A stretch of DNA of 64,000 bases from Nemertoderma westbladi (taxonomy: Eukaryota > Animalia > Xenacoelomorpha), in assembly GCA_032718475.1 (NCBI GenBank), contig JAUCBJ010009153.1, positions 62,001-126,000 of the forward strand, in the 5' to 3' direction. Below, one piece after another: positions 1 to 62,948 of this stretch. Below the pieces are notes generated by a model that ran no database searches, was not told where the DNA came from, and saw only the letters and a list, made by a program, of their open reading frames with translations. The position numbers were made by a program, and so were the translations under genes. The first letter of the stretch is position 1; every line of letters begins with the position of its first letter.

Positions 1-598
1 GTCCCAATTACCTAAAACAAAAATTCAACAGAGTACGCGATACACACTCTTACAGTACCAGAGCTAGTGCTTCAAACTTCTACCTCCCGAATTGTAAATC
101 CTTCGAATCTGATACTTTCTTTTTTAACGGCATAAAAAATTGGAACGCTCTGCCTAATGAAATTAAAAACCTAAATAATCAACATTCTTTTAAATCTGCA
201 GTTAAATCTCATCTCCGTGTGCAATGTAAAAATAGGTACAATAGTCCTACAGTAAGTTATTAGTTTATTAATTATTTACTATTTATACTGTAATTACGTT
301 TTTAATAAATTGTTCTGTACATTACATCTTTATCGTTGAGTCGGGCATTGTCACGCTCTCGGTAAAGTTGTACATGTACATAGTGTAATTACGTTTTATA
401 TTCGTTTAGGTTAGCGTAGTGTAATATTGTATTTGTAACCAAGTAACATAAAGGACCCCCTTGGAAATAAGCTGCAAAGCTTTAGGGGTAATCCTATATG
501 TTATGTTGGACAATACCTTTATACCGGTACATTGTTTGGTGTATTTGTTATTGTTTTTACATAATGTATAAATAAATCTATAAAATAAATCTATCTAT
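1..598 (+). mobile_element. LINE copy 1 (3' part: end of ORF2, 3' UTR, tail), CR1/L2-group; cut by window start
   Basis: Matches 13775-14372; ORF2 ends ...RYNSPTVSY* at ~263; tail ATAAATAAATCTATAAAATAAATCTATCTAT joins satellite GGCACTC at 599. Confidence 0.92.
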
Positions 599-9995: not shown

Positions 9996-10095
9996 NNNNN
10001 NNNNNNNNNNNNNNNNNNNNNNNNNNNNNNNNNNNNNNNNNNNNNNNNNNNNNNNNNNNNNNNNNNNNNNNNNNNNNNNNNNNNNNNNNNNNNNN
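9996..10095. other. Assembly gap (100 N)
   Basis: Run of exactly 100 N, the usual placeholder for a gap of unknown size. Confidence 0.99.
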
Positions 10096-12961: not shown

Positions 12962-14372
12962 TAGGCCTGATGGGTGTAGGTTCTATAGACTGGTTCAAGT
13001 CCTACCTGTCAGACAGAGGTCAAACTGTAGTCATTAGCAAATCGCTGTCTACTGTACAAGAGATTACCTGTGGTGTACCGCAAGGTAGTATATTAGGTCC
13101 TCTGCTTTTTGTATGCTATGTAAATGATATGATAAGTAGTATAGATCCCGATTTTAAACTCATTTTATATGCCGACGACAGTGCTCTTATTTTCTCTCAT
13201 AAAGATCCTATCCATATTTCCCAAAAGTTAAGTGCAGTTCTAGAATCCTGTAATGAGTGGTTGGTTGATAATAAGCTATCCATTCACTACGGTAAAACTG
13301 AAAGTATTTTGTTTGGTTCCAAAAGAAAGTTAAAGAAGGTAACTAAGTTTGAAGTCACTAGTAATGGACATAAGATTGAAAATAAATAGGAAGTTAAATA
13401 TTTAGGCGCCACATTAGATAACTGCTTATCAGGAGAAAGTACAGTGAAAAATATTTTCTCGAAAGTTAACAGTAGGCTTAGGTTTCTATACAGAAATAAA
13501 AATAGTTTGAACACCGACTCCCGCAAGTTACTTTGCTCTTCTTTAATACAGTGTCACATGGACTATGCGTGCTCTTCTTGGTATGAAGGCTTAACCTAAC
13601 AGCTTAAATGTAAATTACAAGTAGCTCAGAATAAAGTAGTACGATTTATTAAAGACTACAAACCTAGACACCACCTAACTCCAGATGACTTTTCTGAATC
13701 TGGACTACTTAACTTAGATAGTAGAGTTAAGCAGCTACGCCTTAACCATGTGCATAAAGTGTATAATGGTAAATGTCCCAATTACCTAAAACAAAAATTC
13801 AACAGAGTACGCGATACACACTCTTACAGTACCAGAGCTAGTGCTTCAAACTTCTACCTCCCGAATTGTAAATCCTTCGAATCTGATACTTTCTTTTTTA
13901 ACGGCATAAAAAATTGGAACGCTCTGCCTAATGAAATTAAAAACCTAAATAATCAACATTCTTTTAAATCTGCAGTTAAATCTCATCTCCGTGTGCAATG
14001 TAAAAATAGGTACAATAGTCCTACAGTAAGTTATTAGTTTATTAATTATTTACTATTTATACTGTAATTACGTTTTTAATAAATTGTTCTGTACATTACA
14101 TCTTTATCGTTGAGTCGGGCATTGTCACGCTCTCGGTAAAGTTGTACATGTACATAGTGTAATTACGTTTTATATTCGTTTAGGTTAGCGTAGTGTAATA
14201 TTGTATTTGTAACCAAGTAACATAAAGGACCCCCTTGGAAATAAGCTGCAAAGCTTTAGGGGTAATCCTATATGTTATGTTGGACAATACCTTTATACCG
14301 GTACATTGTTTGGTGTATTTGTTATTGTTTTTACATAATGTATAAATAAATCTATAAAATAAATCTATCTAT
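12962..14372 (+). mobile_element. LINE copy 2, 5'-truncated non-LTR retrotransposon (CR1/L2/Crack-like group)
   Basis: RT motifs WFKSYLSDRGQ, CGVPQGSILGPLLF, YADD, KYLG; C-terminal DYACSSW and KNWNALP; microsatellite-like tail; no TSD (1-2 bp of the satellite target lost). Confidence 0.93.
12970..14037 (+). pseudogene. Reverse transcriptase ORF2 fragment with two in-frame stops
   Basis: ORFs 12970-13389 and 13750-14037 share a frame; TAG at 13387 and TAA at ~13597. Confidence 0.9.
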
Positions 14373-26300: not shown

Positions 26301-26617
26301 CACTCTACCAGTACTACCTAGTAAAACAAACAAAGTGCGGCACTCTACCAGTACTACCTAGTAAAACAAACAAAGTGCGGCACTCTACCAGTACTACCTA
26401 GTAAAACAAACAAAGTTCGGCACTCTACCAGTACTACCTAGTAAAACAAACAAAGTGCGGCACTCTACCAGTACTACCTAGTAAAACAAACAAAGTGCGG
26501 CACTCTACCAGTACTACCTAGTAAAACAAACAAAGTGCGGCACTCTACCGGTACTACCTAGTAAAACAAACAAAGTTCGGCACTCTACCAGTACTACCTA
26601 GTGAAACAAACAAAGTT
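14373..26617. repeat. 40/39-bp tandem satellite, block 3 (includes a ~1614-bp local duplication)
   Basis: Same monomer; identical translated segments at 18983 and 20597; rare CAAGCAAAG variant at ~18111 and ~19725. Confidence 0.99.
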
Positions 26618-27870
26618 TAGGCCTGATGGGTGTAGGTTCTATAGACTGGTTCAAGTCCTACCTGTCAGACAGAGGTCAAACTGTAGTCATTAGCAAATCG
26701 CTGTCTACTGTACAAGAGATTACCTGTGGTGTACCGCAAGGTAGTATATTAGGTCCTCTGCTTTTTGTATGCTATGTAAATGATATGATAAGTAGTATAG
26801 ATCCCGATTTTATACTCATTTTATATGCCGACGACAGTGCTCTTATTTTCTCTCATAAAGATCCTATCCATATTTCCCAAAAGTTAAGTGCAGTTCTAGA
26901 ATCCTGTAATGAGTGGTTGGTTGATAATAAGCTATCCATTCACTACGGTAAAACTGAAAGTATTTTGTTTGGTTCCAAAAGAAAGTTAAAGAAGGTAACT
27001 AAGTTTGAAGTCACTAGTAATGGACATAAGATTGAAAATAAATAGGAAGTTAAATATTTAGGCGCCACATTAGATAACTGCTTATCAGGAGAAAGTACAG
27101 TGAAAAATATTTTCTCGAAAGTTAACAGTAGGCTTAGGTTTCTATACAGAAATAAAAATAGTTTGAACACCGACTCCCGCAAGTTACTTTGCTCTTCTTT
27201 AATACAGTGTCACATGGACTATGCGTGCTCTTCTTGGTATGAAGGCTTAACCAAACAGCTTAAATGTAAATTACAAGTAGCTCAGAATAAAGTAGTACGA
27301 TTTATTAAAGACTACAAACCTAGACACCACCTAACTCCAGATGACTTTTCTGAATCTGGACTACTTAACTTAGATAGTAGAGTTAAGCAGCTACGCCTTA
27401 ACCATGTGCATAAAGTGTATAATGGTAAATGTCCCAATTACCTAAAACAAAAATTCAACAGAGTACGCGATACACACTCTTACAGTACCAGAGCTAGTGC
27501 TTCAAACTTCTACCTCCCGAATTGTAAATCCTTCGAATCTGATACTTTCTTTTTTAACGGCATAAAAAATTGGAACGCTCTGCCTAATGAAATTAAAAAC
27601 CTAAATAATCAACATTCTTTTAAATCTGCAGTTAAATCTCATCTCCGTGTGCAATGTAAAAATAGGTACAATAGTCCTACAGTAAGTTATTAGTTTATTA
27701 ATTATTTACTATTTATACTGTAATTACGTTTTTAATAAATTGTTCTGTACATTACATCTTTATCGTTGAGTCGGGCATTGTCACGCTCTCGGTAAAGTTG
27801 TACATGTACATAGTGTAATTACGTTTTATATTCGTTTAGGTTAGCGTAGTGTAATATTGTATTTGTAACC
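26618..27870 (+). mobile_element. LINE copy 3, left part (interrupted in the 3' UTR)
   Basis: Same 5' junction CAAAGTT|TAGGCCTGATGG as copy 2 (offset 13,656); breaks at ...TTTGTAACC. Confidence 0.93.
26626..27693 (+). pseudogene. Reverse transcriptase ORF2 fragment with one in-frame stop
   Basis: ORFs 26626-27045 and 27100-27693 share a frame; TAG at 27043 is shared with copy 2. Confidence 0.9.
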
Positions 27871-30800
27871 GAGAGAAAGCCGCCCCAATATTAGATTATT
27901 ACAACAACATATCCATTGGGTAAGAAAGTGGAGGAGAGCCAGCCCGTCTCTTAATTTTTTACTTTATATTACGCGATCAATTTTCACTCATCTCGTCATG
28001 AACCCAACATGTATGTAACCTTTTGTTAAATTTGTTGGCTATGCGTTTGAGGTTGTTTGGGCGGAGTGTGGTAGGCCTACACTTTTCATACTTAAATATT
28101 TTGGTTGTGAAATGTTACAGGGCATAGCGATCTGAGATATTTCATTTATATTTTATTATGAGAGGAAGAAGAACATACAACGTTATTTACTATGTAACAA
28201 AATAATTGTTTTCGGGTTTAACTTGGAAGCCTCCCCAAATAGTTGATATACAATTATATTTAAAATTATTTCCATGGTCATGGTCATTCACCCGTCTTTA
28301 GTTAGAAATTTGTTTGCATGAAAGACAGTTTAGTTTAGTTTTTACTGATTTATTATCTCTTATCTGACTGGGGTAATAATAAAGGATAGGATAAATGGAA
28401 GCAAAGTGTGACAGTAACAAATATTTCCCCGTCACCCTAGCATGTCTTAAGTATATGATATATCAAAGGGGGAAGTTTGGATTCACTGCATAAATGCAGT
28501 TCACCAAACTTCCCCCGAATGCACACTGTAACTTCCCCCTTCCCACAAATATCCACTGTTGAATTAATTTGAAGCGATATAATAAGTACAAAATTGTGCG
28601 AGTTTTTAATTGTGTGGTCCAATTGTTATTTGATTTCTATTTATTATTTAAAGTGCATTTAATATCACACTGGTTTTTAGAATATTATACTATACAACCT
28701 TATGTTTTATTAATTTACCCAATCGAAGCCTCATAAGGGCCGGTTATTTGTACGCATATCCCCTAATGCGCTCAGTAAGGTTCAAACAACATATTAATAT
28801 GAAAATAAAGTATCTGCAAAGAAAATAACCCAATACTATATAATTTGACCTTATTAAAAAATTTGCACTTTTGAACACTTATTTGTACAAGTGCACTTTA
28901 GCAGATCGTAATGGTGGCTCTTATTTAACAAACTTATGTTTATCCTTTGCCGATCTACGATAGTGTATGATCAAGTGTCAGTCGCTAAAAGTGTCAAAAA
29001 TCCAATTTAATAAATCTGGATTTGCGATTTTGGACCATATTCATGGACATTTTAAGTCACTTTATAGACATAAAAAGTTAAACAAATGTTACGATTATAG
29101 TTAGAAATCATTCCAAACTACATTTTAATCCAAAAAATAACATTCTACGATGAATAGAACTGGAAATAATAGTGTTTGAAATATCGAAAAAATGTTCACT
29201 ATTTAAGTGCATTTTGCACTAAGTGCACATGCGTCTTTTCCCAAGTTGTATCCTATTTCACACACTACAATCTATTCTCTATCCAATGAAAAAAGTTTCA
29301 GATTAAACGGCCCTCTAGAACCGAAGTTATTTATGTTTAAAAATAGTCACTCGAAAATTTCAAATTCTATTGGTCACATAGTCTAGTGGTTATCAATCAC
29401 GTTAATGAAACCTAAGTTCGTGGGTTCGAAACCCAATATTGACCTGACCATTCTTAATTTTTTTGCAAAAAAAATTATTTTTACTTTGTCACTAAAATCG
29501 CTCTAACTTCGGTTCTGGTGGTCCAAATTCAATAAAATTGGTATATTCTTTGCCGTAATTTTTTTCTTAATCTTTTGAGAAGGGGTTATTTTTGGCCCCA
29601 AAAAAATTAAAAAAAAGGGCCAAAATAACGCGATATTTTTCGACCCTTAAAATTCGTAATTTTAATTATATATGTTAAGATAAAAGATAGCGGAGTTAAT
29701 TTGATACTTTTTACAGGTACTTTTGGCGAAATACGCTAAATTATAATGGAATAGCGATTTGTTAAAAAAAAAAATTTTTCGTCCCTTTTTATAAATATTA
29801 TATTTCACACGATCGCCTGCCGCTCCAGTTTTATAATACCTCCAGCGCTGTGATTAACGCTGTTAGATAGATAATTTAACGCACTATAAGTCTGTGTAAA
29901 CAAATCTCCCGTAAGTTAAGTAGTTTTCGAGCTAGACGATTTCCCGCGAAGCAAGTTTGAAGCGCAAAATTATAATTTTGGCCCTCATTTTTTTAATATC
30001 ATCCTTGGAGCAAAACCGATAGCATATTTGAATTCCCCGTATGGATATTGACTGTATAGAATGTACCTTAACCAACTAAAGTTAAAAATAAAAAATTATT
30101 CGATAAAAACTACTTTACAAATTCTGGCCCTTTTTGGCCCCTATTGCCGACATATTTTTTGTACCCCCATTCGATAGGAACGTAGCCCCAATGGTCTTCT
30201 ACGAGTTTCATAAAAGAATTAGTGGATTCCTACCCGCGTTGTCGAATTAAACATTTCAGAAATAAGTTTTCCAAAAAAGACGGACAAAAACGTACAAATT
30301 TACAGCCCCTTTTTCCACCCGAAATTTTAATAAATATCTTACCCCCATTCGATACGAAGGTAGTACCACTCTTCCCCTTTCCAACCGCGTTACTTTCGTC
30401 CCCGTACGATTAATATTAGCCGAGTTATAGCCGATCCCGCAAAGTCATTTTGTCCGTTTTTTCAACTTTGACGGACATTTTCGGAAAAAAGGCGTGGTAA
30501 TCTTTTTTGAAAAAAAAAACGAATTCACTAATTAATCCCTTCTATCGTATCCCGGCGTCGGCTAAGCAATAACCTAGGGTTTTTTCGAGCCACTGTAGAG
30601 CGCCTTTCAAAAAAATTTTAAAATTGTCGAAAAAATGACGGTTTTTTGTCCGCCGTGTCCGTCGAAGGGTTATATTTCATAATGTTAGAGTTGCTAATAT
30701 CTTAGAATTCCGAGCCGCTCCCCTGGTGAGAAAATAAAAAAATTTGGTCAGTTCCTTCATCGAAAAGTCCCCCAGAATCCCAAGTTAACCTATATAGTTA

Positions 30801-30895
30801 GCGAGGGCCTGCGGCTTTAGGAGCGGCCGCGGTATTCACCTCCCTCATAGCGGCCGCGGCGGTGTTGCGTCAAATGGAGAAATATTTATCCCACC
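27871..30895. mobile_element. Unit A of composite insertion (3,025 bp)
   Basis: Ends in a GC hairpin plus ATATTTATCCCACC|AAG; ~28455-30490 aligns with ~31480-33480 of unit B. Confidence 0.75.
29372..29444 (+). pseudogene. tRNA-derived relic (Pol III A/B boxes) in unit A
   Basis: 73 bp; GGTCA...TGACC acceptor-like ends, A-box TAGTCTAGTGG, T-arm TGGG-TTCGAAA-CCCA; D and anticodon stems do not pair. Confidence 0.65.
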
Positions 30896-33875
30896 AAGGC
30901 GGACCCCTCAATAAAGATATACTTAACGAAAGACCACGAGGTAAAGGGAAAAGCGTGCAGGGAGGGGGAAGGATGGGGGTATGGGTCGAATGAAATGACA
31001 AGAGGGGAGACCAACTGGACTCGTTAATTTTATATTACTCGAAATTTTATGTAATATATTTTCGCTCCCAGTGTACACTTGTTCTATATACCGGTAACCC
31101 CTTAATATTAATATATACTACTCAGTCGTTTGTACATAATACGAAGCCTGTAAGTTATAGTCACCGAAACATTTCAGCTCGGAAATAATAATATATGAAT
31201 CAAGGATGTCTCTCTTATGATCTACATAGAATAGATATGGTTATTGATACTGTTACATTGTGATAATGGATTCTAGGTTTCTTTCACTGGTAAATCCGCA
31301 TAATAGTTGAAGTAATAAAATTTAATTACACAACCATAGTTCGAAGATCAGCATTTTTCATACCAGTCATTGCTTAGAAATTTTACAGGATAATATTGTT
31401 AATCTGACTTAAGTTGTTTAGGTTGAACAAAGTCTACATAGTAAACAACAGGTCCTCCAAAGAGTGTGTCTTTGGTATATTATATCATGAAGGGGGAAGT
31501 TAGATTCACTGCATAAATGCAGTTCATCTAACTTCCCCCAAATATCTACTGTTGAATAAAATTGAAGCGATATATTAAGTCCGAAGAGGTGCGAGTTTTT
31601 TAATAAATTGTGTGGTCCATTTGTTATCTGTTCTCTATTTATTGTTTAAAGTTCATTTAAGATCACACTGGTTTTTAGAATATTACAACCTTATTTATTA
31701 TTAATTTAACCAATCGAACCCTTATAAGGATCGGTTATTCGTACACATACTCCTAATGCGCTCAGTAAGATCCAAACAACATATTAATATGAAAATAAAT
31801 TATCTGCAACGAAAAGAACCCAATAATACACCATTTGACCTTATTAAAAAAATTGCACATTTGCACACATATTTGCACAAGTGCTATTTAACGGATCCTA
31901 AATGTGGTTCCTATTTAACACACTTATGTCTATCCTCTACCGATCTGCGATGGTGCATGATCAAGTCTCAGTCACTAAAAGTGTCAAAAATCCAATTTAA
32001 TAAATCGCGACATTTGCGATTTTGGACCATATTCATGGACATTTTAAGTCACTTTATAGACATAAAAAGATAAACAAATGTTAAGATTATAGTTAGAAAT
32101 CACTCCAAACTACATTTTAACCCAAAAAATAACATTCTAGGATGTATAGAACTTGAAATAATAGTGTTTGAATTATCGAAAAAATGTGCACTATTTAAGT
32201 GCATTTTGCACTAAGTGCACATGCGTCTTTTCCCAAGTTGTATCCTATTTCACACACTACAATCTATCCTCTATCCAATGAAAAAAGTTTCAGATCAAAC
32301 GGCCCAGTAGAACCGAAGTTATTGATGTTTAAAAATAGTCACTCGAAAATTTCAAAATCACTTGGTCACATAGTCTAGTGGTTATCAATCACGTTAATGA
32401 AACCTAAGTTCGTGGGTACGAAATCCAATATTGGCCATTCTTAATTTTTTGTAAAAAAAATTTTTTTTATTTTTTCACTAAAATCGCTCTAACTTCGGTT
32501 CTGATGGTCCAAATTCAATAAAATTTGTATATTCTTTGCCGTAATTTTTTTTTCTATCTTTTGAGAGGGGGTCATTTTTGGCCCCAAAAAAAATTGAAAA
32601 AAAGGGCCAAAATTACGCGATATTTTTCGGCCCTTAAAATTCATAATTTTAATTATAAATGTTAAGAAAAAAGATAGCGGAGGTAATTATCTACATTTTA
32701 AATGTACTTTTGGAGCAATACACTAAATTATAATGGAGTAGCGATTTATTAAAAATAAAATTTTTTTTGCCCCTTTTTATAAATATTTTATTTCACACGA
32801 TCGTCTACCGCACCAGTTGTATAATAGCTACGGCGTTGTAACTAACGCTGAAAGATAGATAATTTAACGCTCTATAAGAATGTTTAAATACGTTTCCCCG
32901 ACGTTGAGTAGTTTTCGAGCTACACGTGTTCCCGCGCAGCCAGTTTGAAACGCGAAATTTTAATATTGGCCCTCATTTTTTTTATATCATTTGCGCAGCA
33001 AAACCAATCGAATATTTGGATTGCCCGTATTAATATTAACCTTATAAAATGCACCTTAACCTTCTAGAGTCAAAAATTTAAAAGTTATTAGTTATAAATC
33101 ATTTATCAGTTTCTGGCCCTTTTTGGACCCTTTTGCCGACATATTTTTTGTACCCCCATTCGATAGGAATGTAGCCCCTGTGGTCTGTTACACCTTCCGA
33201 AAAGAATTGGCAGATTCCTACTAGCGTTTTCGAATTAAAAATTTCGGAAATATTAATTATATATAAAAGACGGACAAAAACGGAAAAGTTACGGCCCCTT
33301 TTTCCACCCGCAATATTAATAAATATCTTACCCCCATTCGATAAGAATGTAGTACCACTCTTTCCCTATCCACCCGCGTTACTTTCGTCTCCGTACGATT
33401 AATATTGTCCGAGTTATAGCGCATTCCGCAAAGTCATTTTGTCCGTTTTCTCGATTTTGACGGACATTAGCTGGAAAACGATCGGCTTAATTTTTAAAAC
33501 AAAAATATGTGAAATCTAATTTTTAAACCCTCTTTCGATTCCGGGCGACGTCTTGTCCGTAGAGGCGAGATTTAATTTTTTTTACATAGACCCTAATGGT
33601 GAAAAAGACAAAAAAACCAGACAATTGTCCGTCATGTCCGTCAAAACGATAGATTCGCTAAAAGCTCTGAAGAATCTTATTTTTTTGGCATTACGCGTCC
33701 CCCTTCGAAAAATCGAGAAAATCGTACGGCTGGAAATAGGTCGAATGGGGGGGGAACACCGTTTTCGCAGTAACTACGCGTCCAGTATGTAGACTGCGTC
33801 CTTTAGAGGGGCGGCGAATTCACCTCACTCGACGCCGCCCTTACTGAATGTTTTTAAAAGATATTTCTTCCCACC
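30896..33875. mobile_element. Unit B of composite insertion (2,980 bp)
   Basis: Starts AAGGCGGACCCCTCAATA (cf. unit A GAGAGAAAGCCGCCCCAATA); ends in a GC hairpin plus ATATTTCTTCCCACC|AAG. Confidence 0.75.
32364..32436 (+). pseudogene. tRNA-derived relic in unit B
   Basis: Paralog of 29372-29444; A-box intact, B-box mutated (GGTACGAAATCC). Confidence 0.55.
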
Positions 33876-34033
33876 AAGTAACATAAAGGACCCCCTTGGA
33901 AATAAGCTGCAAAGCTTTAGGGGTAATCCTATATGTTATGTTGGACAATACCTTTATACCGGTACATTGTTTGGTGTATTTGTTATTGTTTTTACATAAT
34001 GTATAAATAAATCTATAAAATAAATCTATCTAT
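33876..34033 (+). mobile_element. LINE copy 3, right part (rest of 3' UTR and tail)
   Basis: AAGTAACATAAAGGACCCCC...ATCTATCTAT, matching 14215-14372. Confidence 0.93.
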
Positions 34034-45617: not shown

Positions 45618-46143
45618 TGTTAGCTTATCCAATTCCGCTAACACAAACCCATAGAGTGAGCCATAAAGCAATATTGGGAGCACGAGGTTGATCACCAATC
45701 AACCTCGTGTCAGCCCAGTAAACGGGGACAATAGGCCCCAAAGGAAGCACACAATAGAGGGTCAGGGGCCAAACCCCTAACCCAAGGAGAACACAGGGAG
45801 TGAAGGGAAACACTCCAAAGGGTGCCAACAAGGGTATCAACCAATCAGAGGGGGGAAAGGCATCGATTGAGTAGCAATAAGGCCACCGTGCAATATAACC
45901 AGTAACCTGTAATCATTCATTCAGTTTACTCAGTCAGATCAGTAGGGTGGAACGGGGACTTCTGTCACCGTCCGCTACCGCCATCATACTTATATTACCT
46001 GTTGTGTTATACTATATATATATCAGACTATTATACCTTATACATATAACCGGACACCAGAACTGTTTCACCTTTCACACAACGGCGGGGACGCGTGGAT
46101 AGAAAACCCAACGGATAAACCGGGATCCGTAGATCCCGTCACA
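45618..46143 (+). repeat. 5' LTR (526 bp)
   Basis: TGTTAGC...CCGTCACA; no difference from the 3' LTR seen by eye; identical antisense 71-aa translations in the ORF track. Confidence 0.97.
45841..45926 (+). promoter_or_regulatory. Putative LTR Pol II promoter
   Basis: CCAATCA at 45841, TATAA at 45894, Inr-like TCAGTT at 45921, in canonical -80/-30/+1 spacing. Confidence 0.5.
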
Positions 46144-46154
46144 GTGACAGAACT
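46144..46154 (+). promoter_or_regulatory. Primer-binding-site position, non-canonical (GTGACAGAACT, no TGG)
   Basis: Directly follows the 5' LTR; first 9 nt are the reverse complement of LTR 45960-45968. Confidence 0.5.
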
Positions 46155-46232
46155 AGATCCGCCCAGCTGCCCTGACAGAGATAGAATAGAGCTACCGTCC
46201 TAGCTAGCGACGACCAGCTACTAAAGACGAAG

Positions 46233-49200
46233 ATGAGTCGAGAGAGAGGAACGACACCGCCGCGGACCCCGGACGACGATCTAACGATCCGTGAGGCCAC
46301 GGCGAGACGATACGAACCCACGACGCCGATCGATGCCACGCCGACCACGTCGACGCAGGTTGACGCCACGTCGACAACGAGCGACCCGGCGAACCAAGAT
46401 GTGGGGGGTCGTCTACAACCGGAGAGCGAGTCGAGGGAAGGAGACGAGAAGGGAGGAGAAGAGAAAGACGAGTCGACGCGGAGCGAGGGTCGACATACCG
46501 ATGTCACCGGTCAGCCACAGGCCGAGGACGACGGACGGTCCACCGGAACGGCAACGGTGGGGCCGTCGGTACGACGTCGGACCCGGAGAGACAGAGGAGA
46601 GATCGGCGACGAGGACGTCGGGGTTTCTGATCGACTTCGACGGGCCTACAACGCGACCCGGGAACTACTAAAGGAGGCCAAGGAGGGGGCGAAGGTAGAC
46701 GAGGTGAGACTGAGGAGACGACTAGGTGAGTCGAACAGGTACCTTGATCACCTAGTGTGTTCTGGGCAGAGAGAACTAGCCGAGGAGAGGGCGTGGGGAG
46801 TTGCCTTCGGACTGTTTGAACTATGGGAATGTGGGGGTATGGAGCCTAGTGTAGTGTACATAGGGCCATACTTAGTCGATGCCCGGGGAGCAAAATTAGT
46901 GGGTTGGAAGAGACCTGAGGAGGGCGAATCCGAGGTTAAACCCAAGGATTCGGTCTCGTCGGTCGGAAGAAGTTCCGGGAAGCGGGGGAAAGTTGGTAGG
47001 ACGGAGGGGCGACGGGAGTCTGTCGCAACCGATAAGTCTGCTACATCCTCCGCAAAAGAAAGAAGGGTGCGGGAGAGATATCTAAAGTGTAAATTAGGAA
47101 TGGCGGCGGCAGAGCAGGAACAGTTAGAGTGGCAATTGAGGAGTGAAACCACATTATTAGAGTTGGCAAGGGAGGATAGAGAGAGAGCCGAGGAGCGAAG
47201 AGATCGGGAGATGAGAGTAGAGAGCGAGCCGGCGAGCTGGTTTGATATGCTTGCGAGAGAGACGGCCGAGCGAAGTTTACGAGGGTACAGAGAGAGAGAG
47301 ATAGAGAAAGAGCGTGACCGGGATGATTTGTGTGCCCGGATAGGGAGGCTTGCGCAATATCAAGCCAAACTTAAACGGCGCCGACTAGAACTGGCGCGGT
47401 TGGAAATGTCAGAGAGTGAGACCCCACTTACAGGCACCGGGCGAGAGAACCAGAACTGGTGTAGCCGTACGGGCGGGGGGGGTAGTAGTAGTACGTTAGA
47501 GACAGTTAATGTTAATAGTACCGTAGTAAATAACCCTAATCCCTTTATTACAGGAAATATTTTACCCGGTAGTAGTAATTTAAGTTTAAATTCAAATAAT
47601 AACATTAATTCAAATATTCAGAATAATTCAAATAATACGAATAATAATTTAAATTTTGAAAATAATAACAATCCTAATTTAAATAATTTAAATAATAATC
47701 CCGTTTCAAATTCTAATAATTTAATTGATTTAACAAATAATATTGGGAATGGTGCTATTGATATGAGCGTGTCGGACGTGCATAACCCGACAGACGGTGG
47801 CCTGGTAGGCCACGTAGTTAGTAGGCAGGAAGTGGCAGGGCTGAGCCAACCCGACGGCGGCCTGGTAGGCCACGTAGTTGGTAGGCAGGAGGTAGCGGGG
47901 TTGAGCCAACCCGAGGTGGGCCTGATGGGCCACGCAGTAGTAGAGAGAGAGGCGGGGGTGAATAGACCCAGCCGTAGTAGAGACAGTGCGTCGACTAGAG
48001 AGGGGTGTAGAGACGAAGTAAGATATAGTGAAGTTAGATGTGGCGAGTGGGGGGGGGGCTACCGGCGCCCCACCACGTAAGACTAGTGGCGAGAGAGGGG
48101 GGGCAGAGAATGCCCCACAAGAGGGACGCAAAAGTGTAGTAAGAGATAGTGGAGTTAGAAGTGGCGGGTGGGGGGGGGCTACGGGCACCCCACCGCGAGA
48201 AGTTAGTAGAGAGAGAGGGGGGACAGAGAGTGTCCCACAGCCGTCAGCGGATAATGTGCGGGCCGAATCAGGTAAACCGCAACAACCGGCGACGGAGAGT
48301 AATAGGGGGATTGCGAGTATCCCCAGCGGCGTGCGATCGAGCAGAGAGAGGCAGGTTGACGTCGCGAGAGGGCAGACGAAGCGTCGAGCCCGACCAGAAG
48401 AGAGAAGAAGAACAGTGGAGTTTAACCGGGAGGTCGACGAGAGATCTCACGAGCCGGAATACTACACAGAAAAGAGAAGAAGAGAAGATAGTAAAAAAGG
48501 TGTCGCCACGAATGATAGGAGTGCGAGGACGGATAACGAACCGTCGATAGTAGAGATGGAGTCAGGGAGCCAGTGGGGTCGAACTTCGGGAGATTGCCGT
48601 CGCCCCGGAGAAACGCACCGCACGCCAAGAGAGGGGTACAAGACGTACCAATACAGAGTCTAGAACAGGAGAGGGGATCGGAGAGAAGCTTCCCGACGGG
48701 ATATAGCTGCCGATCGAGAGTGCAGTAGTCGCGGGGAGATTCGAGATTCGCGAAGAATAAACGTCGGTTCGGAAGGGCACATGCAGACTGCAGGACATAC
48801 TGTAGGCCTTACTGCACATACTATTATAGGCCATGCTGGGAGAGATAGAGTAGGCGATGGGGTAGCGCGAACGACGGAATTAAACCCGGAAGTCGCGGAG
48901 TACATACCGGTAGGTAGGCGAGAGGTAGGTAGGCCTATATCGGTACAGCAGCATGACTATAATACACAGGGACATAATATATATCCAGGGGAGGGGGGAG
49001 TTATTGGAGATAGACGTATGGGCCCCAATGTATTAACATCAACCCCAGCACCAAACATACCGGCCGGGGGGGGACAGGGTGACATTCCCCCATCACAATA
49101 TCGACAATGTACCCCGATAGGAGCAAGAACATCGAACTCCCTGGACGAGAACAGGTCGTGCGGACAGTCACAACCACACGCGGCCGTACAGGGGACTGCT

Positions 49201-49932
49201 AGTCCACAGTTAGGTGGTAGCAGGACCACACCGTGGCAGGGACAGAAAGAAAATAACACCAAAAATAAACACAATCCCAATATACCCAGTAGGCCGAGTC
49301 TAGACAACCAAAACATTAAATCGGTACATATAAACCTAAGCGCGATACGTGAAGGACTATACAGGAAACGCTATAATCCAGGATTCCAATGTCAATTACA
49401 TCGGGACGGAACCCATAAGACCAGGAGTTGCAAGTACTGGCAAGCGTTGCCCAAACGAGATCGTGTAGCCTACACAGACGCAAACGGACTATGTCATCGA
49501 TGTGTGGTAAAAGGACACAGATCCGGAGAGTGTTGGAAAGGGAAAGGATACGAAAGGACTAAACCAGGGGCAGAGAAGCCCATTAGCAAACTTAAGGGAG
49601 TCGGGAAAGTAGGAGGAGGCGTGTTGCATACACACGCAGGACGGACACAGTGCGAGGGGGCATTGCACGGGCAGACACCGCGTATACCGAGGGACGAGCG
49701 GGGGTCGTCGAGGGCTCTAATGCCAGCGCACATACGAAGGGGGAGGCCAGCAAAGGTGGCACCGAAGAGAGTGTGGCGAAGAGTTAGAGGACGTATAGGA
49801 GGGCAACAGGAGAGTGCCTACTGGAAGAAGGGGCACCTGAGAGTTTTTAGTCGTCCAAAGTTTTGGACTGAGGGGGGTGGGAATGAGGGCGAGACGCCCT
49901 TCCCACGCACAAAATATAAAATAATTATTTAA
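46233..49932 (+). pseudogene. gag: Gag-like ORF (~1,230 codons reconstructed) with one frameshift and one in-frame TAG
   Basis: ORFs 46233-48080, 48028-48663 and 48781-49932 join via an extra G in the run at 48049-48058 and TAG at 48661; charged coiled-coil N-terminus, Asn-rich island, CQLHRDGTHKTRSC...LCHRCVVKGHRSGEC knuckles. Confidence 0.7.
47788..48240 (+). repeat. In-frame coding tandem repeats (60-bp x~2.5, then 120-bp x2)
   Basis: PDGGLVGHVVSRQEVAGLSQ units; WGGATG(A/T)PPR...ERGG units. Confidence 0.8.
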
Positions 49933-49985
49933 TTAAAAATAAGAAAATAATTAAATAATAGAGTAGGTAGAAGTTAGGTAGTAAG

Positions 49986-50026
<41 letters not shown>

Positions 50027-51760
50027 AAGAGGGTACGTAGTACCGTTAGTTAGAGAGTTAGTAGGTACGTAGTACCTAATCAGAGTTAGAGTTAGTAGGT
50101 ACGTAGTACCTAGAGTTAGTTAGAGTTAGTAGGTACGTAGTACCTAATCAGAGTTAGAGTTAGTAGGTACGTAGTGCCTAGAGTTAGAGAGTTAGTAGGT
50201 ACGTAGTGCCTAGAGTTAGAGAGTTAGTAGGTACGTAGTACCGATAGTTAGAGAGTTAGTAGGTACGTGGTACCTAGTTAGAGTTAGAGTTAGTAGGTAC
50301 GTAGTACCTAGAGTTAGTTAGAGAGTCAGTAGGTACGTGGTACCTAGTTAGAGTTAGAGTTAGTAGGTACGTGGTACCTAGTTAGAGTTAGAGTTAGTAG
50401 GTACGTGGTACCTAGTTAGAGTTAGAGTTAGTAGGTACGTGGTACCTAGTTAGAGTTAGAGTTAGTAGGTACGTGGTACCTAGTTAGAGTTAGAGCTAGA
50501 GGGTACGTAGTACCGATAGTTAGAGAGTTAGAGGGTACGTAGTACCAATAGTTAGTTAGAGTTAGTAGGTACGTAGTACCTAGTTCGAGTTAGAGTTAGA
50601 GGGTATGTAGTACCGCTAGTTAGAGTTAGAGTTAGTAGGTACGTAGTACCTAGAGTTAGTTAGAGAGTCAGTAGGTACGTGGTACCTAGTTAGAGTTAGA
50701 GTTAGTAGGTACGTGGTACCTAGTTAAAGTTAGAGTTAGAGGGTATGTAAGTACCGCTAGTTAGGAAGTAGTAGAGCAGTAGGGGTTGTGGGCACCGGAA
50801 GCGCCACGCAGTTAGACTTAGTAGGGAATGCGCTGAACTTAGTGGGGCACGGGCGTGATGACGTGTTTGATGTAAGAGCAGGGTATGTTAATTAGGGTGG
50901 GTGCCGGGCACAAGAGGTGCCGGGCACAAAAAGAGTTAGTAGTAGAGTTAGTTGAGTTAGTAGTAGAGTTAGTTGAGTTAGTAGTAGAGTTAGTTGAGTT
51001 AGTAGTAGAGTTAGTAGAGTTAGAAGGTGCTGGGCACAAGAGGTGCCGGGCACAAAAAGAGTTAGTAGAGTTAGAAGAGAGTTAGTAGAGTTAGTAGAGT
51101 CAGTAGTAGTTCACATAATTAACGTACCCACTCTGCCGGCACTCAGAGCGTCACGTGTAGGCGATGAGACGTAAAGGGGGAGTAGAGGAGTAGAGACGGG
51201 TACATAGGGTACCAGTGAGTAGAAGAGTAGAGACGGGCACGTAGGGTGCCAGGTAGTAGAGTTAGAGAGTTAGAGATAGAGTAGAGTAGTAGAGAGGGCA
51301 CATAGGGTGCCAGGTAGTAAGTTAGAGAGGTAGTAGTGTAGTAGAGAGGGCACATAGGGTGCCAGGTAGTAGAGTAGAGCAGAGGGGGCACATAGGGTGC
51401 CAGGTAGTAGAGCTAGAGAGGTAGCTGAGTAGTAGAGGGCACATAGGGTGCCAGATAGTAGAATGGTTGTGGGCACCGCAAGCGCCACGTACTTAGAAGA
51501 GTGGAGTAGAGTTAGTAGAGCTAGTTAGTAGAGTTAGCAGAGCTAGTGGAGTAGAGTTAGTAGAGCTAGTTAGCGGACTTGGTAGACTCGGAGGAGTCAA
51601 GTAGAGCTAGTAGAAGTAGAAAGTTAGTAGGAGTTAGTTAGACTTAGTACAGAGTTTGAGTCAGTAGAAAGTTAGAGGCCCTCAGTTAGAGCTAGAAGTA
51701 GTAAGAGTTAGTAGTTAGCAGAGTTAGTTAGATAGTTAGAGTTAGTAAGCAGTAGGTAGA
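49986..51760 (+). repeat. Internal purine-rich repeat tract: (AGTT)10, ~30-bp GGTACGT(A/G)GTACC units, 21-bp units, GGCACATAGGGTGCC units
   Basis: Read directly; linkers are AGAGTT/AGT words nearly devoid of C. Confidence 0.9.
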
Positions 51761-52155
51761 TAGTATGATAGCACAGGGGTAGCATTAGAGATTAAAGCCT
51801 TAGGGAGTGACAAGAGAGTGGAGAGGTAATAGTGCGGAGTGCGAAGAGAGCGTGGGCGCAATTCAAGTGTGGGGGAGGAGAAGTGAGAGGAAGAGTGTGG
51901 GACGAGGAAGTCCGGGAGTATGCGAGAGTTGGAGTAGAATGGTGAGAGTGTTGGGGAAACAAAAATTGTGTGAGAGAAGCGCACGATCGGCCCGACACGA
52001 GACGCCAGAGGGTAGTGACATCATACCCATAGGGAGCGGCCTGGAAAGCCGACTCCGAAAAAATATACCCACCCCACACCCGATAATAGATCGGGATCCA
52101 GCGGAATTGTAGCGCACTTGAGTTGGATGCTATCTTCTCACCGGGAAGATAGCAT

Positions 52156-52164
52156 GGGGGGGAG
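52156..52164 (+). promoter_or_regulatory. Polypurine tract
   Basis: GGGGGGGAG immediately before the TG of the 3' LTR. Confidence 0.85.
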
Positions 52165-52690
52165 TGTTAGCTTATCCAATTCCGCTAACACAAACCCATA
52201 GAGTGAGCCATAAAGCAATATTGGGAGCACGAGGTTGATCACCAATCAACCTCGTGTCAGCCCAGTAAACGGGGACAATAGGCCCCAAAGGAAGCACACA
52301 ATAGAGGGTCAGGGGCCAAACCCCTAACCCAAGGAGAACACAGGGAGTGAAGGGAAACACTCCAAAGGGTGCCAACAAGGGTATCAACCAATCAGAGGGG
52401 GGAAAGGCATCGATTGAGTAGCAATAAGGCCACCGTGCAATATAACCAGTAACCTGTAATCATTCATTCAGTTTACTCAGTCAGATCAGTAGGGTGGAAC
52501 GGGGACTTCTGTCACCGTCCGCTACCGCCATCATACTTATATTACCTGTTGTGTTATACTATATATATATCAGACTATTATACCTTATACATATAACCGG
52601 ACACCAGAACTGTTTCACCTTTCACACAACGGCGGGGACGCGTGGATAGAAAACCCAACGGATAAACCGGGATCCGTAGATCCCGTCACA
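52165..52690 (+). repeat. 3' LTR (526 bp)
   Basis: Direct repeat of 45618-46143, followed by TSD AGTAC. Confidence 0.97.
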
Positions 52691-59217: not shown

Positions 59218-59355
59218 TGATGAATTATTTCACTATAAGGTAGCATTTGTAGTTTAACTTTAACGTAAAAACTTTCGAAAATCCGACGTATTTTGATTAA
59301 GTTACAGTAATGTAATATGCCTATTCATATTTGTACACATAAAACCCTTAGGTAC

Positions 59356-59430
59356 TCTCGTGGCGTAGTGGTCAGATGGTTAAGGCGTTGGTTACATTAC
59401 ATAGGTTACGAGGTCGAATCCCGGTCGGGA
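59356..59430 (+). pseudogene. tRNA-like / SINE-head-like segment
   Basis: A-box-like TGGCGTAGTGG and TGGTCAGATGGTTAAGGCG; B-box-like GGTCGAATCCC. Confidence 0.45.
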
Positions 59431-61059
59431 AATTTGTATTTTGGGGCCATTTATTTTCGTTTGGTGCTAATTGGTAGGCCAATGAGAAGCGTACAGCGTA
59501 GCGAATGATGAGCCAGGCCAATCATAGGGTGTAAAAGCTTTTGTGGGATAACTGATTCGTTTGCCTTGTTGGCCAGTTCCCCCCCAGTCGCTAAGAATAC
59601 TCTCAAAGTGATCTACAGCTAAAAATAGTGCAAGTTACCAGCTTATTGGCTGATTTGCTGTACGCAGGCATCTGGGCTCTGTTTAATCGGCCAACAAGCC
59701 TAGGGAGGTTGCGTCATAGCCTTGTTTTTGTATCTCCCAATAGAATTTGAGTTAGCCTTGATTTTGACCTATCACAGGCTACTGAACTGAAATTTGCCTA
59801 TCTCACTGCTCTTTCTCTGTGTTGAACGGGAGCTTCGTGGAATAAGGGAGTTGGTATCCTCGTATAGAGCAGTAGTCACGAGTTTTTCAAAGCCACGAAA
59901 GAACGGCTTTTTAGTGTTTTGTGCTTTCTGCTTTTTAGCTCAACACTAGTAGGTTTAATTATAAGGACATATATCCTTTAACTGGCGACAGCAACTGCTG
60001 CCACACGGCTTTTAATAACTGCTGAAACTGCTAAAATTACCTGCTCAATCAATACTGTATACTGCTATTTGTTGTCAGTTATTCATTATATTTGTTGATG
60101 AATTATTATATTGGAATAACGAGAAATAACCCCGACACCCAATATTCTTGATATACCGAAGGTAAGAGAGAAAGGTTACCAATAACGATTGTGACTTATG
60201 TTAAAGTGGTTTGAAGTGAATCTAATGTTATTTGATAGACCCTACATGAGTCAGTCTGTGTTCCTTCTATACGTGACTAAAATCAGTGAAGATTGGCAGA
60301 TTAGTGTGCAGTATTGTGCAGCATTGCGTATGAGTGAGTCTGTTAAAGAAGCATTTCCTAAAGAATGTGCCATATATGTGAAATATAATTAAGCCATATC
60401 GTTGTGAGTAGTTTAAGTCATAACTCTGTTTATATAGATAAAGCGCCACGTCCTAAAGGAACTGTTAATATTCCCGAAGGTGAATAATATTGTCAGAGAT
60501 TATATAATACTGTCAGTCGAATAATACATTAGGCTTACATAGCAATAAAATTAAACCGTCGAACCCAATCTCCCGGGAATATCCAGCGGGTGAATGGTCG
60601 CGCACAGATTGGTTTCGACTAGTGTAGTGAATCAAATACTTGTCATAGGCTAAAAAGCGATTTAATATCTAGAAGACATCTTAATTTGGCGGGTTAAACT
60701 GCCAAAGGTCTGAAAGCGCGAACATTAAAGGATATAGCTTCTTTGTTGCAGTAAGCAATAAAGTTGAAAGTACCGGTCAACCGGTAAACCTGAATCGGTA
60801 CATCTGTAGGTCAGTAGGCCCAACCGCTAGAACCGGTACTTCTGTAGGTCCGTAGGCCTAACTGTCCTAACCGGTACCTCCCGTATAAGTACATTAGTAT
60901 TATTCGATTTGATTGTTGTATACCGGTAGGTCTTAGTATTTAATCAGGGAACGGCCGCCCTGGTTTTTTATTGAGATTTTACTTATTTCTGTCAAGTTTT
61001 ATTTGTTTGTAGGCCAGTATTGAACAGAAGGCGTGTAAGCCTGATCAGATTGTACAGAC

Positions 61060-61630
61060 AATTTGTAGGCTGAGCTGTTGTCTGATTGCTGTTAAGTCCG
61101 AACGGATTGCCGCGTGTGTAGATCATCTGTCCGATTAAGTACGTTTAGGCAGTAGGGGCAGCGAACGCTGTAAGGTAAACCCCCAACTAAAGAATAAGTC
61201 GCACTACTGGGTTAGAGCGCATACTCCCTAATCATTTCAGAGTCTGCATGTCCTGTAGTTTATTTAGGCTTGAGAGTAGTCTGCCATCGTTTAGTCTGTA
61301 CTTTGTTTGTGTAAGTCTGTACGGGTAGCGTATAATTTTATTTAGATAATTTGTAGGCTGGATAGTTGTCTGGCTGTTATTAGGTCTGAGCGGATTGCCG
61401 CGTGTGTAGATCATCTGTCCGATTAAGTACGGTTAGGCAGTAGGGGCAGCGAACGCTGTAAGGTAAACCCCCAACTAAAGAATAAGTCGCACTACTGGGT
61501 TAGAGCGCATACTCCCTAATCATTTCGGAGTCTGCATATACCGTAGTTTGTTTAGGCTTGATAGTAGTCTGTCAGTGTTCGGTCTGTATTTTGTTTGAGT
61601 AGTTTGTACGCGTAGCGTAATATTTATTAT
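61060..61630. repeat. Two-copy tandem repeat, period 288 bp
   Basis: AATTTGTAGGCTG at 61060 and 61348; core 61103-61238 vs 61391-61526 differs at one base. Confidence 0.92.
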
Positions 61631-62948
61631 TCAGAGTTTATGCGATTATCCGCAACATTCATTCCCCAAGTTTGTTCCTACAGTAATTGTGTTTGTTATA
61701 CATACCGCTATAGTTAAATTAACCCCGGTACTACACGGGCTGCTCGGCGTAGGTAAAGACTGGTGATTTTGTGCATCGGTCACTCCAGCAGATGCCGTGG
61801 TTCTTTTAGCTGTTCAAGTATATTTAACTACTGATTATCTGTTGTACAAGTACTCGTACCTAATTTAGGGTTTAGTGTACAGTACTTTCCGAAGTAATTA
61901 TTGTAGACATTATATCTGTGTTGTAAAGTGGTTGATAGGCACATTCGATTAGCTCTATTAACTTCTAGGTAGGAACACTCCGTGATACATAACGTAGAAC
62001 CTATAGCGATACGGCTATAGGTCGTCAGGCGGTGGTATTTTCCTATCTAGACAACGCAGTGTATTTACTACTACTTATTATTTCAAATACCGTAGTACCC
62101 TGTCCGTTGTAATAACCGGTTATCTAACCCTTTGTTAGGCTGGTTTGTAGACTTCTTGTAAAATTACCCTAAAAATTCGTATTTTGTGTTTTTTTGTAAA
62201 TTTTTGTGTTTATTTAGAGATTGTAATCTCACCCGAATTGTACGTAATTTGTAGTATTAAGTAACTTAGGTAAATTAGTATTATTTGTTTTAGTGTCCTA
62301 TAAGTAACACTTCATTGAAAGCGCACCGCTTTGTGTAGTGATTACTCCCCAGAAATAATAACATTTATTTCAAACATTGACTAAACCCATTAAAACGGGT
62401 ATATATATATTATAAATCAAATCTAACGATTTATAAATAGTAGGCCTACCATATAACAATTAGGTCTCCATATCAGTTGGACTACTGCTCAAATAACGGT
62501 AATAAAGTAAGTAAAGTAACAAAGTAACCCTAAAGTAACAGAAATTCAATTATTTGAAATAATTGATATACCGGTATTTACGATAGGCCTATTATCTTTA
62601 TTTCTATAAATCTAGGCTGAAATTATACCGGTACTTGTAATTAATTCTATTTCAGAATTATATATCCTACAAACTGTAAGCTGTATACCGGTATTCCAGA
62701 TAGGCCTATTATATATTTATATATATTGGTGCTAAAATTATACCGGTATTCTGTGATAAACCTAGTCTGTAATAATACTTATATACTTATATATACTATA
62801 AGTATACCGGTATTCTAATATATTATATATACCACGCTGCATTGAGTAGCAATACTGGTAATTAATTATTAGGCTAACAGTTAATACTGAGTTACTAGAC
62901 TTGCTCAGACTGTAATACAGCAGTAGACATTCAACGGTATACATAGTC

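What the first reader, a model, noticed from the sequence alone, without database searches (positions are those of the whole stretch)
27868..33878. TIR-less head-to-tail heterodimer inserted at ACC|AAG, with the site regenerated at each junction: candidate site-specific, array-building mobile system
Seen: empty target GTAACC|AAGTAAC; junctions GTAACC|GAGAG (left), TCCCACC|AAGGCG (A/B) and TCCCACC|AAGTAA (right), i.e. ACC|RAG three times; no TIRs, poly-A, LTR or credible ORF. Units A and B are related but clearly diverged (very roughly 80-90% in the central 2 kb by eye, unalignable in the first ~0.6 kb), yet sit in a LINE copy almost identical to its empty siblings. So the dimer is not a local duplication: either two subfamilies hit the same site in turn, or a pre-formed dimer moved. 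Established: short terminal direct repeats without TIRs characterise tyrosine-recombinase Cryptons and HUH rolling-circle elements (IS91 starts CGAG and inserts 5' of CAAG/GAAC; Replitrons). Sliding the boundary 1 bp gives CGAG...|CAAG...|CAAG. Inference: a very recently active non-autonomous family whose integration recreates its target, allowing integron-like cassette stacking. The ends do not fit canonical Helitrons (TC...CTRR in A|T).
Basis: partly seen in the sequence, partly recalled or inferred. Interest (0 to 1): 0.85.

Follow-up and report, generated by a model that had tools for sequence, protein, structure and literature searches.

The report
Self-stacking transposon family without inverted ends
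Two related, non-coding 3-kb mobile elements sit head to tail inside a retrotransposon copy of an animal genome; public DNA data show abundant families with the same three letters (ACC) at both ends that also stack end to end elsewhere, and they likely move by a rolling-circle enzyme that has not yet been found.

Summary
A 6,005-bp insert (A 27871-30895, B 30896-33875; core 85.7% identical) sits at ACC|AAG in a LINE 3' end, with ACC at all three junctions, no significant TIR and no Pfam hit. Contigs of public runs bridge the empty site in 4 of 4 runs and show that A and B are high-copy. Most A right ends are not followed by B. A's shared sequence begins and ends with ACC. The best-covered B-type left ends lie directly behind a family right end (A, B or a third type), so stacking is not confined to this locus. 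Each unit has its only all-GC 8-bp stem 35-38 nt from the right end, with different stems around one loop. Best reading (0.5): a non-autonomous rolling-circle (HUH) family, laid out like Helitron2/HINE but with IS91-like cut sites (CTTG/CTCG) instead of T|T. Rivals: Crypton-like 0.25, Dada-like DDE 0.17. No transposase was found and no genome was held, so the mechanism is inferred. 'Very recent' is less secure than claimed. The scan noted self-targeting Helitron-like trains in other genomes (not checked here).

The parts
26620..27870 (+). 5'-truncated LINE (host of the insertion), left part; ends in GTAACC
   Evidence: RVT_1 hit E 1.7e-15 in 26605-27042; 99.8% to 12964-14217; 2 differences in 1,251
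27868..27870 (+). ACC, left copy of the 3-bp direct repeat
   Evidence: contig X4 record 17 (depth 265) begins exactly here
27871..30895 (+). Unit A, 3,025 bp, no protein-coding evidence
   Evidence: high depth in runs X1, X3, X4; contigs stop at 30895
27875..27884 (+). A left subterminal motif, 8/10 complementary to 30810-30819 (8-bp perfect core 27876-27883 / 30811-30818)
   Evidence: (95/1000 shuffles, weak)
28443..30488 (+). Core of A, 85.7% identical to core of B
   Evidence: identity 0.73-0.95 per 200 nt inside, 0.46-0.57 outside
28468..28516 (.). Internal long hairpin of A (13-bp perfect outer stem) at the start of the core
   Evidence: tandem-repeat joints 28525-28529 back to 28489-28493 in other copies (table 5c)
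30823..30857 (.). Subterminal hairpin of A: the unit's only all-GC 8-bp stem, 38 nt from the right end; loop holds ATTCACCTCCCTC
   Evidence: stem length reached by 20/500 shuffles; folding z only 0.19
30893..30895 (+). ACC at the A/B junction (TCCCACC|AAGG), recreating ACC|AAG
30896..33875 (+). Unit B, 2,980 bp, no protein-coding evidence
31492..31539 (.). Internal long hairpin of B (21 of 23 pairs); two pairs changed on both sides relative to A
33796..33805 (+). B motif just upstream of the hairpin, homologous to A 30810-30819; 9/10 complementary to the target flank 33884-33893
   Evidence: only such site on either strand of the LINE; post hoc, one site
33809..33840 (.). Subterminal hairpin of B: the unit's only all-GC 8-bp stem, 35 nt from the right end; loop holds ATTCACCTCACTC
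   Evidence: 5/500 shuffles; z -2.95
33873..33875 (+). ACC, right copy of the direct repeat
33876..34033 (+). Rest of the LINE 3' end and tail, then the 39-40-bp satellite
   Evidence: 100% to 438-581 and 14212-14355
14212..14217 (+). Empty target ACCAAG in sibling block 2
438..443 (+). Empty target ACCAAG in sibling block 1

Best explanation
A and B are two abundant non-coding, TIR-less element families stacked at one ACC|AAG site, and they are likely non-autonomous rolling-circle transposons moved by an HUH (Helitron-type or IS91-like) enzyme encoded elsewhere. Shown: the ends, the fixed ACC, the high copy number, the one-sided hairpin and the stacking. Inferred: on the minus strand the enzyme would nick after CTYG (target CTTG, far end of B CTTG, far end of A CTCG) and join the hairpin-bearing end (GTGGGA...) to the target, as IS91 does. 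No bases need be duplicated, because element end and target share the letters. Each right junction leaves ...TCCCACC|AAG, again a target. B's left end is itself a target look-alike, so B units would add behind resident elements or be read through, giving A-B and B-B arrays. I think it slightly more likely (about 60:40) that this dimer arrived pre-formed than in two hits.
For: One-sided subterminal hairpin: in each 3-kb unit the only all-GC perfect 8-bp stem lies 35-38 nt from the right end, with different stem letters around the same loop (20/500 and 5/500 shuffles); the left ends have none (178/500, 488/500). A 3' palindrome 8-35 bp and a subterminal repeat 38-60 bp from the end is the HINE layout (PMC4067079); FoHeli1/2 have theirs ~30-40 bp from the end (PMC5148889). 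A motif directly upstream of A's hairpin pairs with A's left end (8/10; 17/2734 LINE windows, 0/2021 core windows), and A's joined ends fold better than 150/150 controls on both strands. Oriented fixed target: A contigs start at ACC (X4 record 17) and stop at ACC (records 3, 5, 18, 25). IS91 uses target CTTG and ter cut CTCG without TSD (PMC13181058). Head-to-tail joints: B-type left ends run unbroken from TCCCACC in contigs of depth 573, 412 (X3) and 432 (X1), against 24-34 for the unique-flank contig; B right end before B left end in 2 contigs (X2); A into a B variant at depth 98 (X2); a third right end in X4. Tandem Helitron insertions are reported. Variable central tandem repeats and mixed ends on a shared core (loose end at 33602) also fit.
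Against: No transposase or autonomous partner was found. No register of the junctions gives the T|T or A|T target of HLE2/HLE1 at all three junctions, there is no 5' hairpin (z 0.31 and 0.19) and the inverted repeat is 8 bp, not 12-17. B's own ends do not pair (5/10; joined ends 67/150 and 51/150 controls). A's hairpin region does not fold better than shuffles overall (z 0.19). The IS91 match was picked from 4 registers x 2 strands after the fact. A fixed 3-bp repeat is equally what a recombinase core or a strict 3-bp TSD leaves; Dada shows that a DDE enzyme can be TIR-less, oriented and stacking. Some copies lack the full ACC (A-like left end starting at 27871 in X1 record 2; 2 X3 contigs leaving at 30893; an X3 B-type contig starting one C before AAGG). 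Contig-end reasoning is indirect, and one search printed only 26 of 401 records.
Confidence: 0.5

Rival explanations
1. Non-autonomous Crypton-like elements: a tyrosine recombinase would excise a double-stranded circle and recombine its ACC(RAG) core with a genomic ACC(AAG), recreating the core on both sides, so units can stack and can leave an exact empty site.
For: No TIRs and short terminal direct repeats are the Crypton hallmark; non-autonomous Cryptons exist in animals (PMC3212892). ACC|RAG at all three junctions reads as a 6-bp core with one mismatch. Precise loss from sibling blocks would explain why the insert looks older than the block duplication.
Against: Described Crypton repeats are 4-6 bp, and the paper found no terminal repeats in animal CryptonA/I. 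No inverted arms flank the joined ends (best 7/13 for A, 6/13 for B, with different cores). A one-sided hairpin 35-38 nt from the crossover is not explained by what I read.
Confidence: 0.25
2. Non-autonomous cut-and-paste elements of a TIR-less, target-specific DDE kind (Dada-like): ACC would be a true 3-bp target duplication, and B inserted at the duplicated ACC behind A.
For: ACC[A]ACC[B]ACC is exactly what serial 3-bp TSDs give. Dada elements lack TIRs, insert in one direction, carry short subterminal repeats that recur in the target, and Dada-U1A/U1B stack with one TSD copy between them (PMC3706591). B's subterminal motif recurs, inverted, in the target flank (9/10).
Against: Dada TSDs are 6-7 bp and their targets are small RNA genes; here 3 bp, a LINE 3' end and varied flanks. 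The motif lies at different distances in A (+5) and in the target (+9). The conserved hairpin is not accounted for.
Confidence: 0.17
3. IS607-like elements moved by a serine recombinase that crosses over at a GG/CC dinucleotide.
For: CC is present at all junctions; IS607 integrates by crossover between GG dinucleotides (PMC10711439); 2 contigs leave A's right end after TCCCA.
Against: The shared stretch is 3 bp plus RAG; in the same paper the mollusc Fanzor2 elements are TIR/TSD cut-and-paste, not IS607; no TnpA or TnpB remnant among the 4 frames scanned.
Confidence: 0.05

Closest known systems
Non-autonomous HLE2 (Helitron2/Helentron; HINE, DINE-1, FoHeli). Seen: passages of PMC4067079, PMC5148889, PMC3627910, PMC11417382
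   Same: No true TIRs; short asymmetric subterminal inverted repeat next to a hairpin some tens of bases from one end; central tandem repeats; tandem and composite copies; high copy number in invertebrates
   Different: Target ACC|AAG instead of T|T; no terminal T; no 5' hairpin; inverted repeat 8 bp and clear only in A
IS91 family (IS91, IS801). Seen: passages of PMC13181058, PMC3189936
   Same: Minus-strand target CTTG; far-end tetranucleotide CTCG (A) or CTTG (B); no duplication needed; palindrome near the end that abuts the target
   Different: Bacterial; no palindrome at the ter-like end here; no sequence relationship or protein shown
Dada transposons. Seen: 10 of 10 passages of PMC3706591
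   Same: TIR-less, oriented, two families stacked with one target copy between them; subterminal motif also in the target
   Different: TSD 6-7 bp and small RNA gene targets, against 3 bp and varied flanks
Cryptons. Seen: passages of PMC3212892, PMC5753468; the supplement listing termini was not read
   Same: No TIRs, short direct repeat at both ends, non-autonomous animal families
   Different: Repeat of 3 bp (4-6 described); animal CryptonA/I reported without terminal repeats; no recombinase arms found
Replitrons. Seen: parts 1-2 of 7 and passages of PMC10288648
   Same: Short direct repeat at the termini, oriented insertion, hairpin at one end
   Different: Reported from plants, algae and stramenopiles, not animals; 6-bp repeat, RG target and fuzzy ends in Replitron-1

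Membership tests
HLE1 (canonical Helitron) | 5'-TC, CTRR-3', A|T target, hairpin 10-12 nt from the end | tested here: not met
   Junction letters on both strands; hairpin 35-38 nt from the end; definitions
HLE2 (Helitron2/Helentron/HINE) | Insertion at T|T (or T|C), T at the termini | tested here: not met
   One of 4 registers gives T|T on the minus strand at the outer site, but T|G at the A/B junction and at a B-type monomer
HLE2 (Helitron2/Helentron/HINE) | Asymmetric subterminal inverted repeat, 8-15 or 12-17 bp, next to the 3' hairpin | tested here: inconclusive
   A: 8 bp perfect (95/1000 shuffles; 8/10 and 0/150). B: gapped 11/13 (77/1000), motif itself 5/10
HLE2 (Helitron2/Helentron/HINE) | Subterminal 3' hairpin | tested here: met
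   (significant by folding only in B)
HLE2 (Helitron2/Helentron/HINE) | 5' terminal hairpin (Helitron2) | tested here: not met
   z 0.31 and 0.19; 178/500 and 488/500
HLE2 (Helitron2/Helentron/HINE) | RepHel partner with the same ends | not testable with these tools
   No genome held
IS91 family | Tetranucleotide target CTTG/GTTC beside the ori end; ter cut CTCG/GTTC; no TSD | tested here: met
   Met at this locus in one register chosen after the fact; target logo not available
IS91 family | Palindrome beside the ter cut site | tested here: not met
   No stem at the left ends
IS91 family | Y2 HUH transposase | not testable with these tools
   Units are non-coding; no partner reachable
Crypton | No TIRs; 4-6-bp terminal direct repeat (none in animal CryptonA/I) | tested here: inconclusive
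   No TIR; 3-bp exact repeat, 5/6 if RAG is counted
Crypton | Inverted arms of 11-13 bp around a 6-8-bp core | tested here: not met
   Best 7/13 and 6/13 on the joined ends; feature as stated for YR sites
Crypton | Tyrosine recombinase partner | not testable with these tools
Dada | 6-7-bp TSD in a small RNA gene | tested here: not met
   3-bp repeat in a LINE 3' end; no Rfam or tRNA hit
Replitron | Short terminal direct repeat and one-sided hairpin | tested here: met
   weak because the features are generic
Replitron | Y1 Rep (HUQ) transposase; host range plants, algae, protists | not testable with these tools
   No partner protein; host is an animal according to unchecked scan notes and the named LINE hits
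Any described Repbase/Dfam family | Full-length sequence match | not testable with these tools
   No such library among the tools

The most novel reading that the evidence does not exclude
An animal lineage of HUH transposons outside HLE1/HLE2 that keeps the bacterial IS91 cutting rule (CTTG target, CTCG/CTTG termination), picks targets that mimic its own left end, possibly by pairing a motif at the foot of the hairpin with DNA just beyond the cut, and so builds ordered A-B-B cassette arrays on its own right ends.
Probability: 0.13. Interest if true: 0.8.

Novelty: new variant of a known kind. Interest (0 to 1): 0.5.

Why it matters
The ends fit none of the eukaryotic definitions I read (HLE1, HLE2, Crypton, Dada, Replitron), yet the family appears to have hundreds of copies, so end-based annotators would miss it. 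If the partner is an HUH enzyme, it would be a site-preferring, self-stacking system in an animal with IS91-like cut sites, useful for studying how rolling-circle elements choose targets and form arrays. If it is a Crypton or Dada relative, it would give unusually clean termini for a poorly described group. Until the partner is found it is one more non-autonomous repeat with odd ends.

Tried and rejected
Whole-genome search: no G000 is held, so no BLAST of the ends, target logo or partner search. Right-end pattern: 0 matches in viral contigs; 3 in metagenome contigs (L001-L003), all chance, with no homology to A or B beyond 14-22 nt at E >= 0.07. Core patterns: 0 in prokaryote genomes, 0 in viral contigs. 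Rfam 0, ARAGORN 0. Pfam: 0 for 4 insert frames; the other 56 frames were not scanned. No RNA holder listed; X5 is only guessed to be RNA, so nothing is claimed on expression. Earlier scan notes by sequence: none for A or B; none near (38); word searches 37 and 66 empty. Rejected: local duplication (85.7% core, both families abundant); LTR, DIRS or SINE (no long terminal repeats, no tail); ordinary TIR element. An AAG preference after ACC could not be measured: loose ends that continue in AAG are over-represented because they match the stretch for longer, and unique-flank contigs overlap by only ~30 nt. Paper searches showed no element with these ends among the passages read; most subscription journals and Repbase Reports are not covered, and no supplement was read (the Crypton termini list may bear on the Crypton rival). 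PMC13085455 (passages, part 1 of 2 of one section) and PMC11934779 (passages) show Helitron-like elements with other targets or arrays but gave no matching ends. Atlas search of the ORF at 62916 gave no usable hit.
Full report
Setting. The window is mostly a 39-40-bp satellite. It holds three copies of a 5'-truncated LINE end (1-581, 12964-14355, 26620-34016), an LTR-type element (45618-52690) and an unclassified repeat at the right edge. No genome is held, so evidence on other copies comes from contigs of public runs laid on the window.

Observation. The third LINE copy carries 6,005 extra bases at ACC|AAG: A (27871-30895) and B (30896-33875). Contigs bridge the empty site in 4 of 4 runs, with 3 letters fitting either side. 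The units share a core of 85.7% identity. Identity per 200 nt is 0.73-0.95 inside the core and 0.46-0.57 outside, yet the outer parts are still homologous (z 5.3 and 4.6; last 100 nt z 6.0; each 0/200 shuffles). So A and B are full-length relatives with diverged ends on a similar core. There is no TIR above chance, no frame over 122 aa, and no Pfam, Rfam or tRNA hit in what was scanned.

Other copies. Both units are covered at very high depth in X1 and X3. One X3 contig in A has depth 9,542, against 28-50 for contigs with unique flanks, which suggests hundreds of copies; this is a rough inference, not a count. Across the A/B junction summed depth falls from 52,904 to 3,398 (X1), 138,434 to 8,684 (X2), 49,860 to 4,661 (X3) and 93 to 0 (X4), so most A right ends are not followed by B. 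Contigs break where copies stop agreeing (inference from how such assemblies work). A contig starts exactly at the left ACC (X4 record 17), and four listed contigs stop exactly at the right ACC (records 3, 5, 18, 25). ACC is therefore fixed and oriented at both ends of most A copies. Exceptions exist: one diverged left end without it (X1 record 2) and 2 X3 contigs leaving at 30893.

Stacking. B-type left ends behave differently. Three contigs of depth 573, 412 and 432 run unbroken from TCCCACC into B (records 20, 21, 6). Two X2 contigs put B's own right end before a B left end, one X2 contig (depth 98) runs from A into a B variant, and X4 shows a third right end before another variant. B-type left ends with unique flanks also exist (records 7, 15, 22, probably one locus, depth 24-34; one more X2 loose end). 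Only 26 of 401 records and 20 of 52 loose ends were printed, so no fraction can be given. B-B joints could be circles or tandem arrays; at these depths arrays are more likely.

Structure. In each 3-kb unit the only perfect all-GC 8-bp stem lies 35-38 nt from the right end. The stems differ, the loop is nearly the same (20/500 and 5/500 shuffles). By folding energy only B's end stands out (z -2.95; A 0.19). An internal long hairpin opens the core, with two pairs changed on both sides; palindromes can be homogenised without selection, so this is weak. A motif directly upstream of A's hairpin pairs with A's left end (8/10), and A's joined ends fold better than all 150 controls on both strands. 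The homologous motif of B does not pair with B's left end (5/10) but pairs 9/10 with the target flank at 33884-33893, the only such site on either strand of the LINE (16/2734 windows, all the same site). This is one site, found after the fact among 6 comparisons: a lead only.

Age. The empty siblings are duplicated blocks (2 differences in 1,251 sites). Among the 40 of 384 difference rows printed, the window's A differs from >=95% of X1 depth at 14 sites, B at 10 and the ~400 LINE bases at 1. The insert thus looks older than the block duplication. Either an already diverged, perhaps pre-formed, dimer was copied here, or the siblings lost it, or the sequenced animals carry other master copies. 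'Very recent' is possible but not shown.

Mechanism. Sequence alone cannot tell a strict 3-bp TSD, a recombinase core and an HUH nick site apart; all give ACC[A]ACC[B]ACC. The one-sided hairpin, the asymmetric repeat beside it, the oriented target, mixed ends and head-to-tail joints match the HLE2/HINE layout. In one register the minus strand reads CTTG at the target, CTTG at B's far end and CTCG at A's far end, which are IS91's target and ter cut. I put HUH rolling circle at 0.5, Crypton-like at 0.25, Dada-like DDE at 0.17 and IS607-like at 0.05. All enzyme steps are inferred.

Comparison. It works like a non-autonomous HLE2 but fails that group's T|T target and 5' hairpin, so I do not file it there. 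It fails HLE1 and Dada features, and is inconclusive for Crypton. Dada-U1A/U1B are a published case of two TIR-less families stacked with one target copy between them, which lowers the surprise of the dimer itself. All papers were seen as passages or named parts only, no supplements. Repbase and Dfam could not be searched, so a described family is not excluded. Unchecked scan notes report self-targeting Helitron-like trains in other genomes; they agree in idea and are not evidence.

Verdict. A real, abundant family with non-standard ends and real stacking; class unproven. New variant of a known kind, interest 0.5.

Noticed in passing
window 1-581, 12964-14355, 26620-34016: The LINE fragment plus flanking satellite forms a ~13.7-kb higher-order block repeated three times; same 5' truncation (copies 2, 3) and 3' junction, no target duplication seen. 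A 100-N gap lies at 9996-10095.
   Followed up: partly
window 45618-52690: LTR-type element in the satellite: identical 526-bp LTRs (TG...CA) flanked by AGTAC on both sides, frames of 631 and 422 aa without Pfam hit, internal tandem repeats; no polymerase frame seen.
   Followed up: partly
window 59218-64000: Unclassified repeat running off the window: a ~290-bp tandem duplication (61056-61635) and an open frame of 361+ aa from 62916 with no Pfam or Atlas hit.
   Followed up: partly
window 29371-29440, 32363-32425 and 59357-59430: Segments that look tRNA-like by eye inside A, B and the right-edge repeat; ARAGORN finds none and Rfam none in A/B.
   Followed up: partly
window 30646-30663 and 33625-33642: A short TGTCC-type motif kept in both units inside the otherwise diverged right part; recalls the GTCY repeats named for DINE-1-like elements in a cited title.
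   Followed up: no
window 33602 (runs X3, X5): Contigs that share only the last ~270 nt of B and continue upstream in unlike sequence, pointing to further subfamilies with a B-type right end.
   Followed up: no
run X5 (organism B): A run labelled as another organism holds pieces of A, B and the empty LINE at low depth; mixed sample or close relative not resolved.
   Followed up: no
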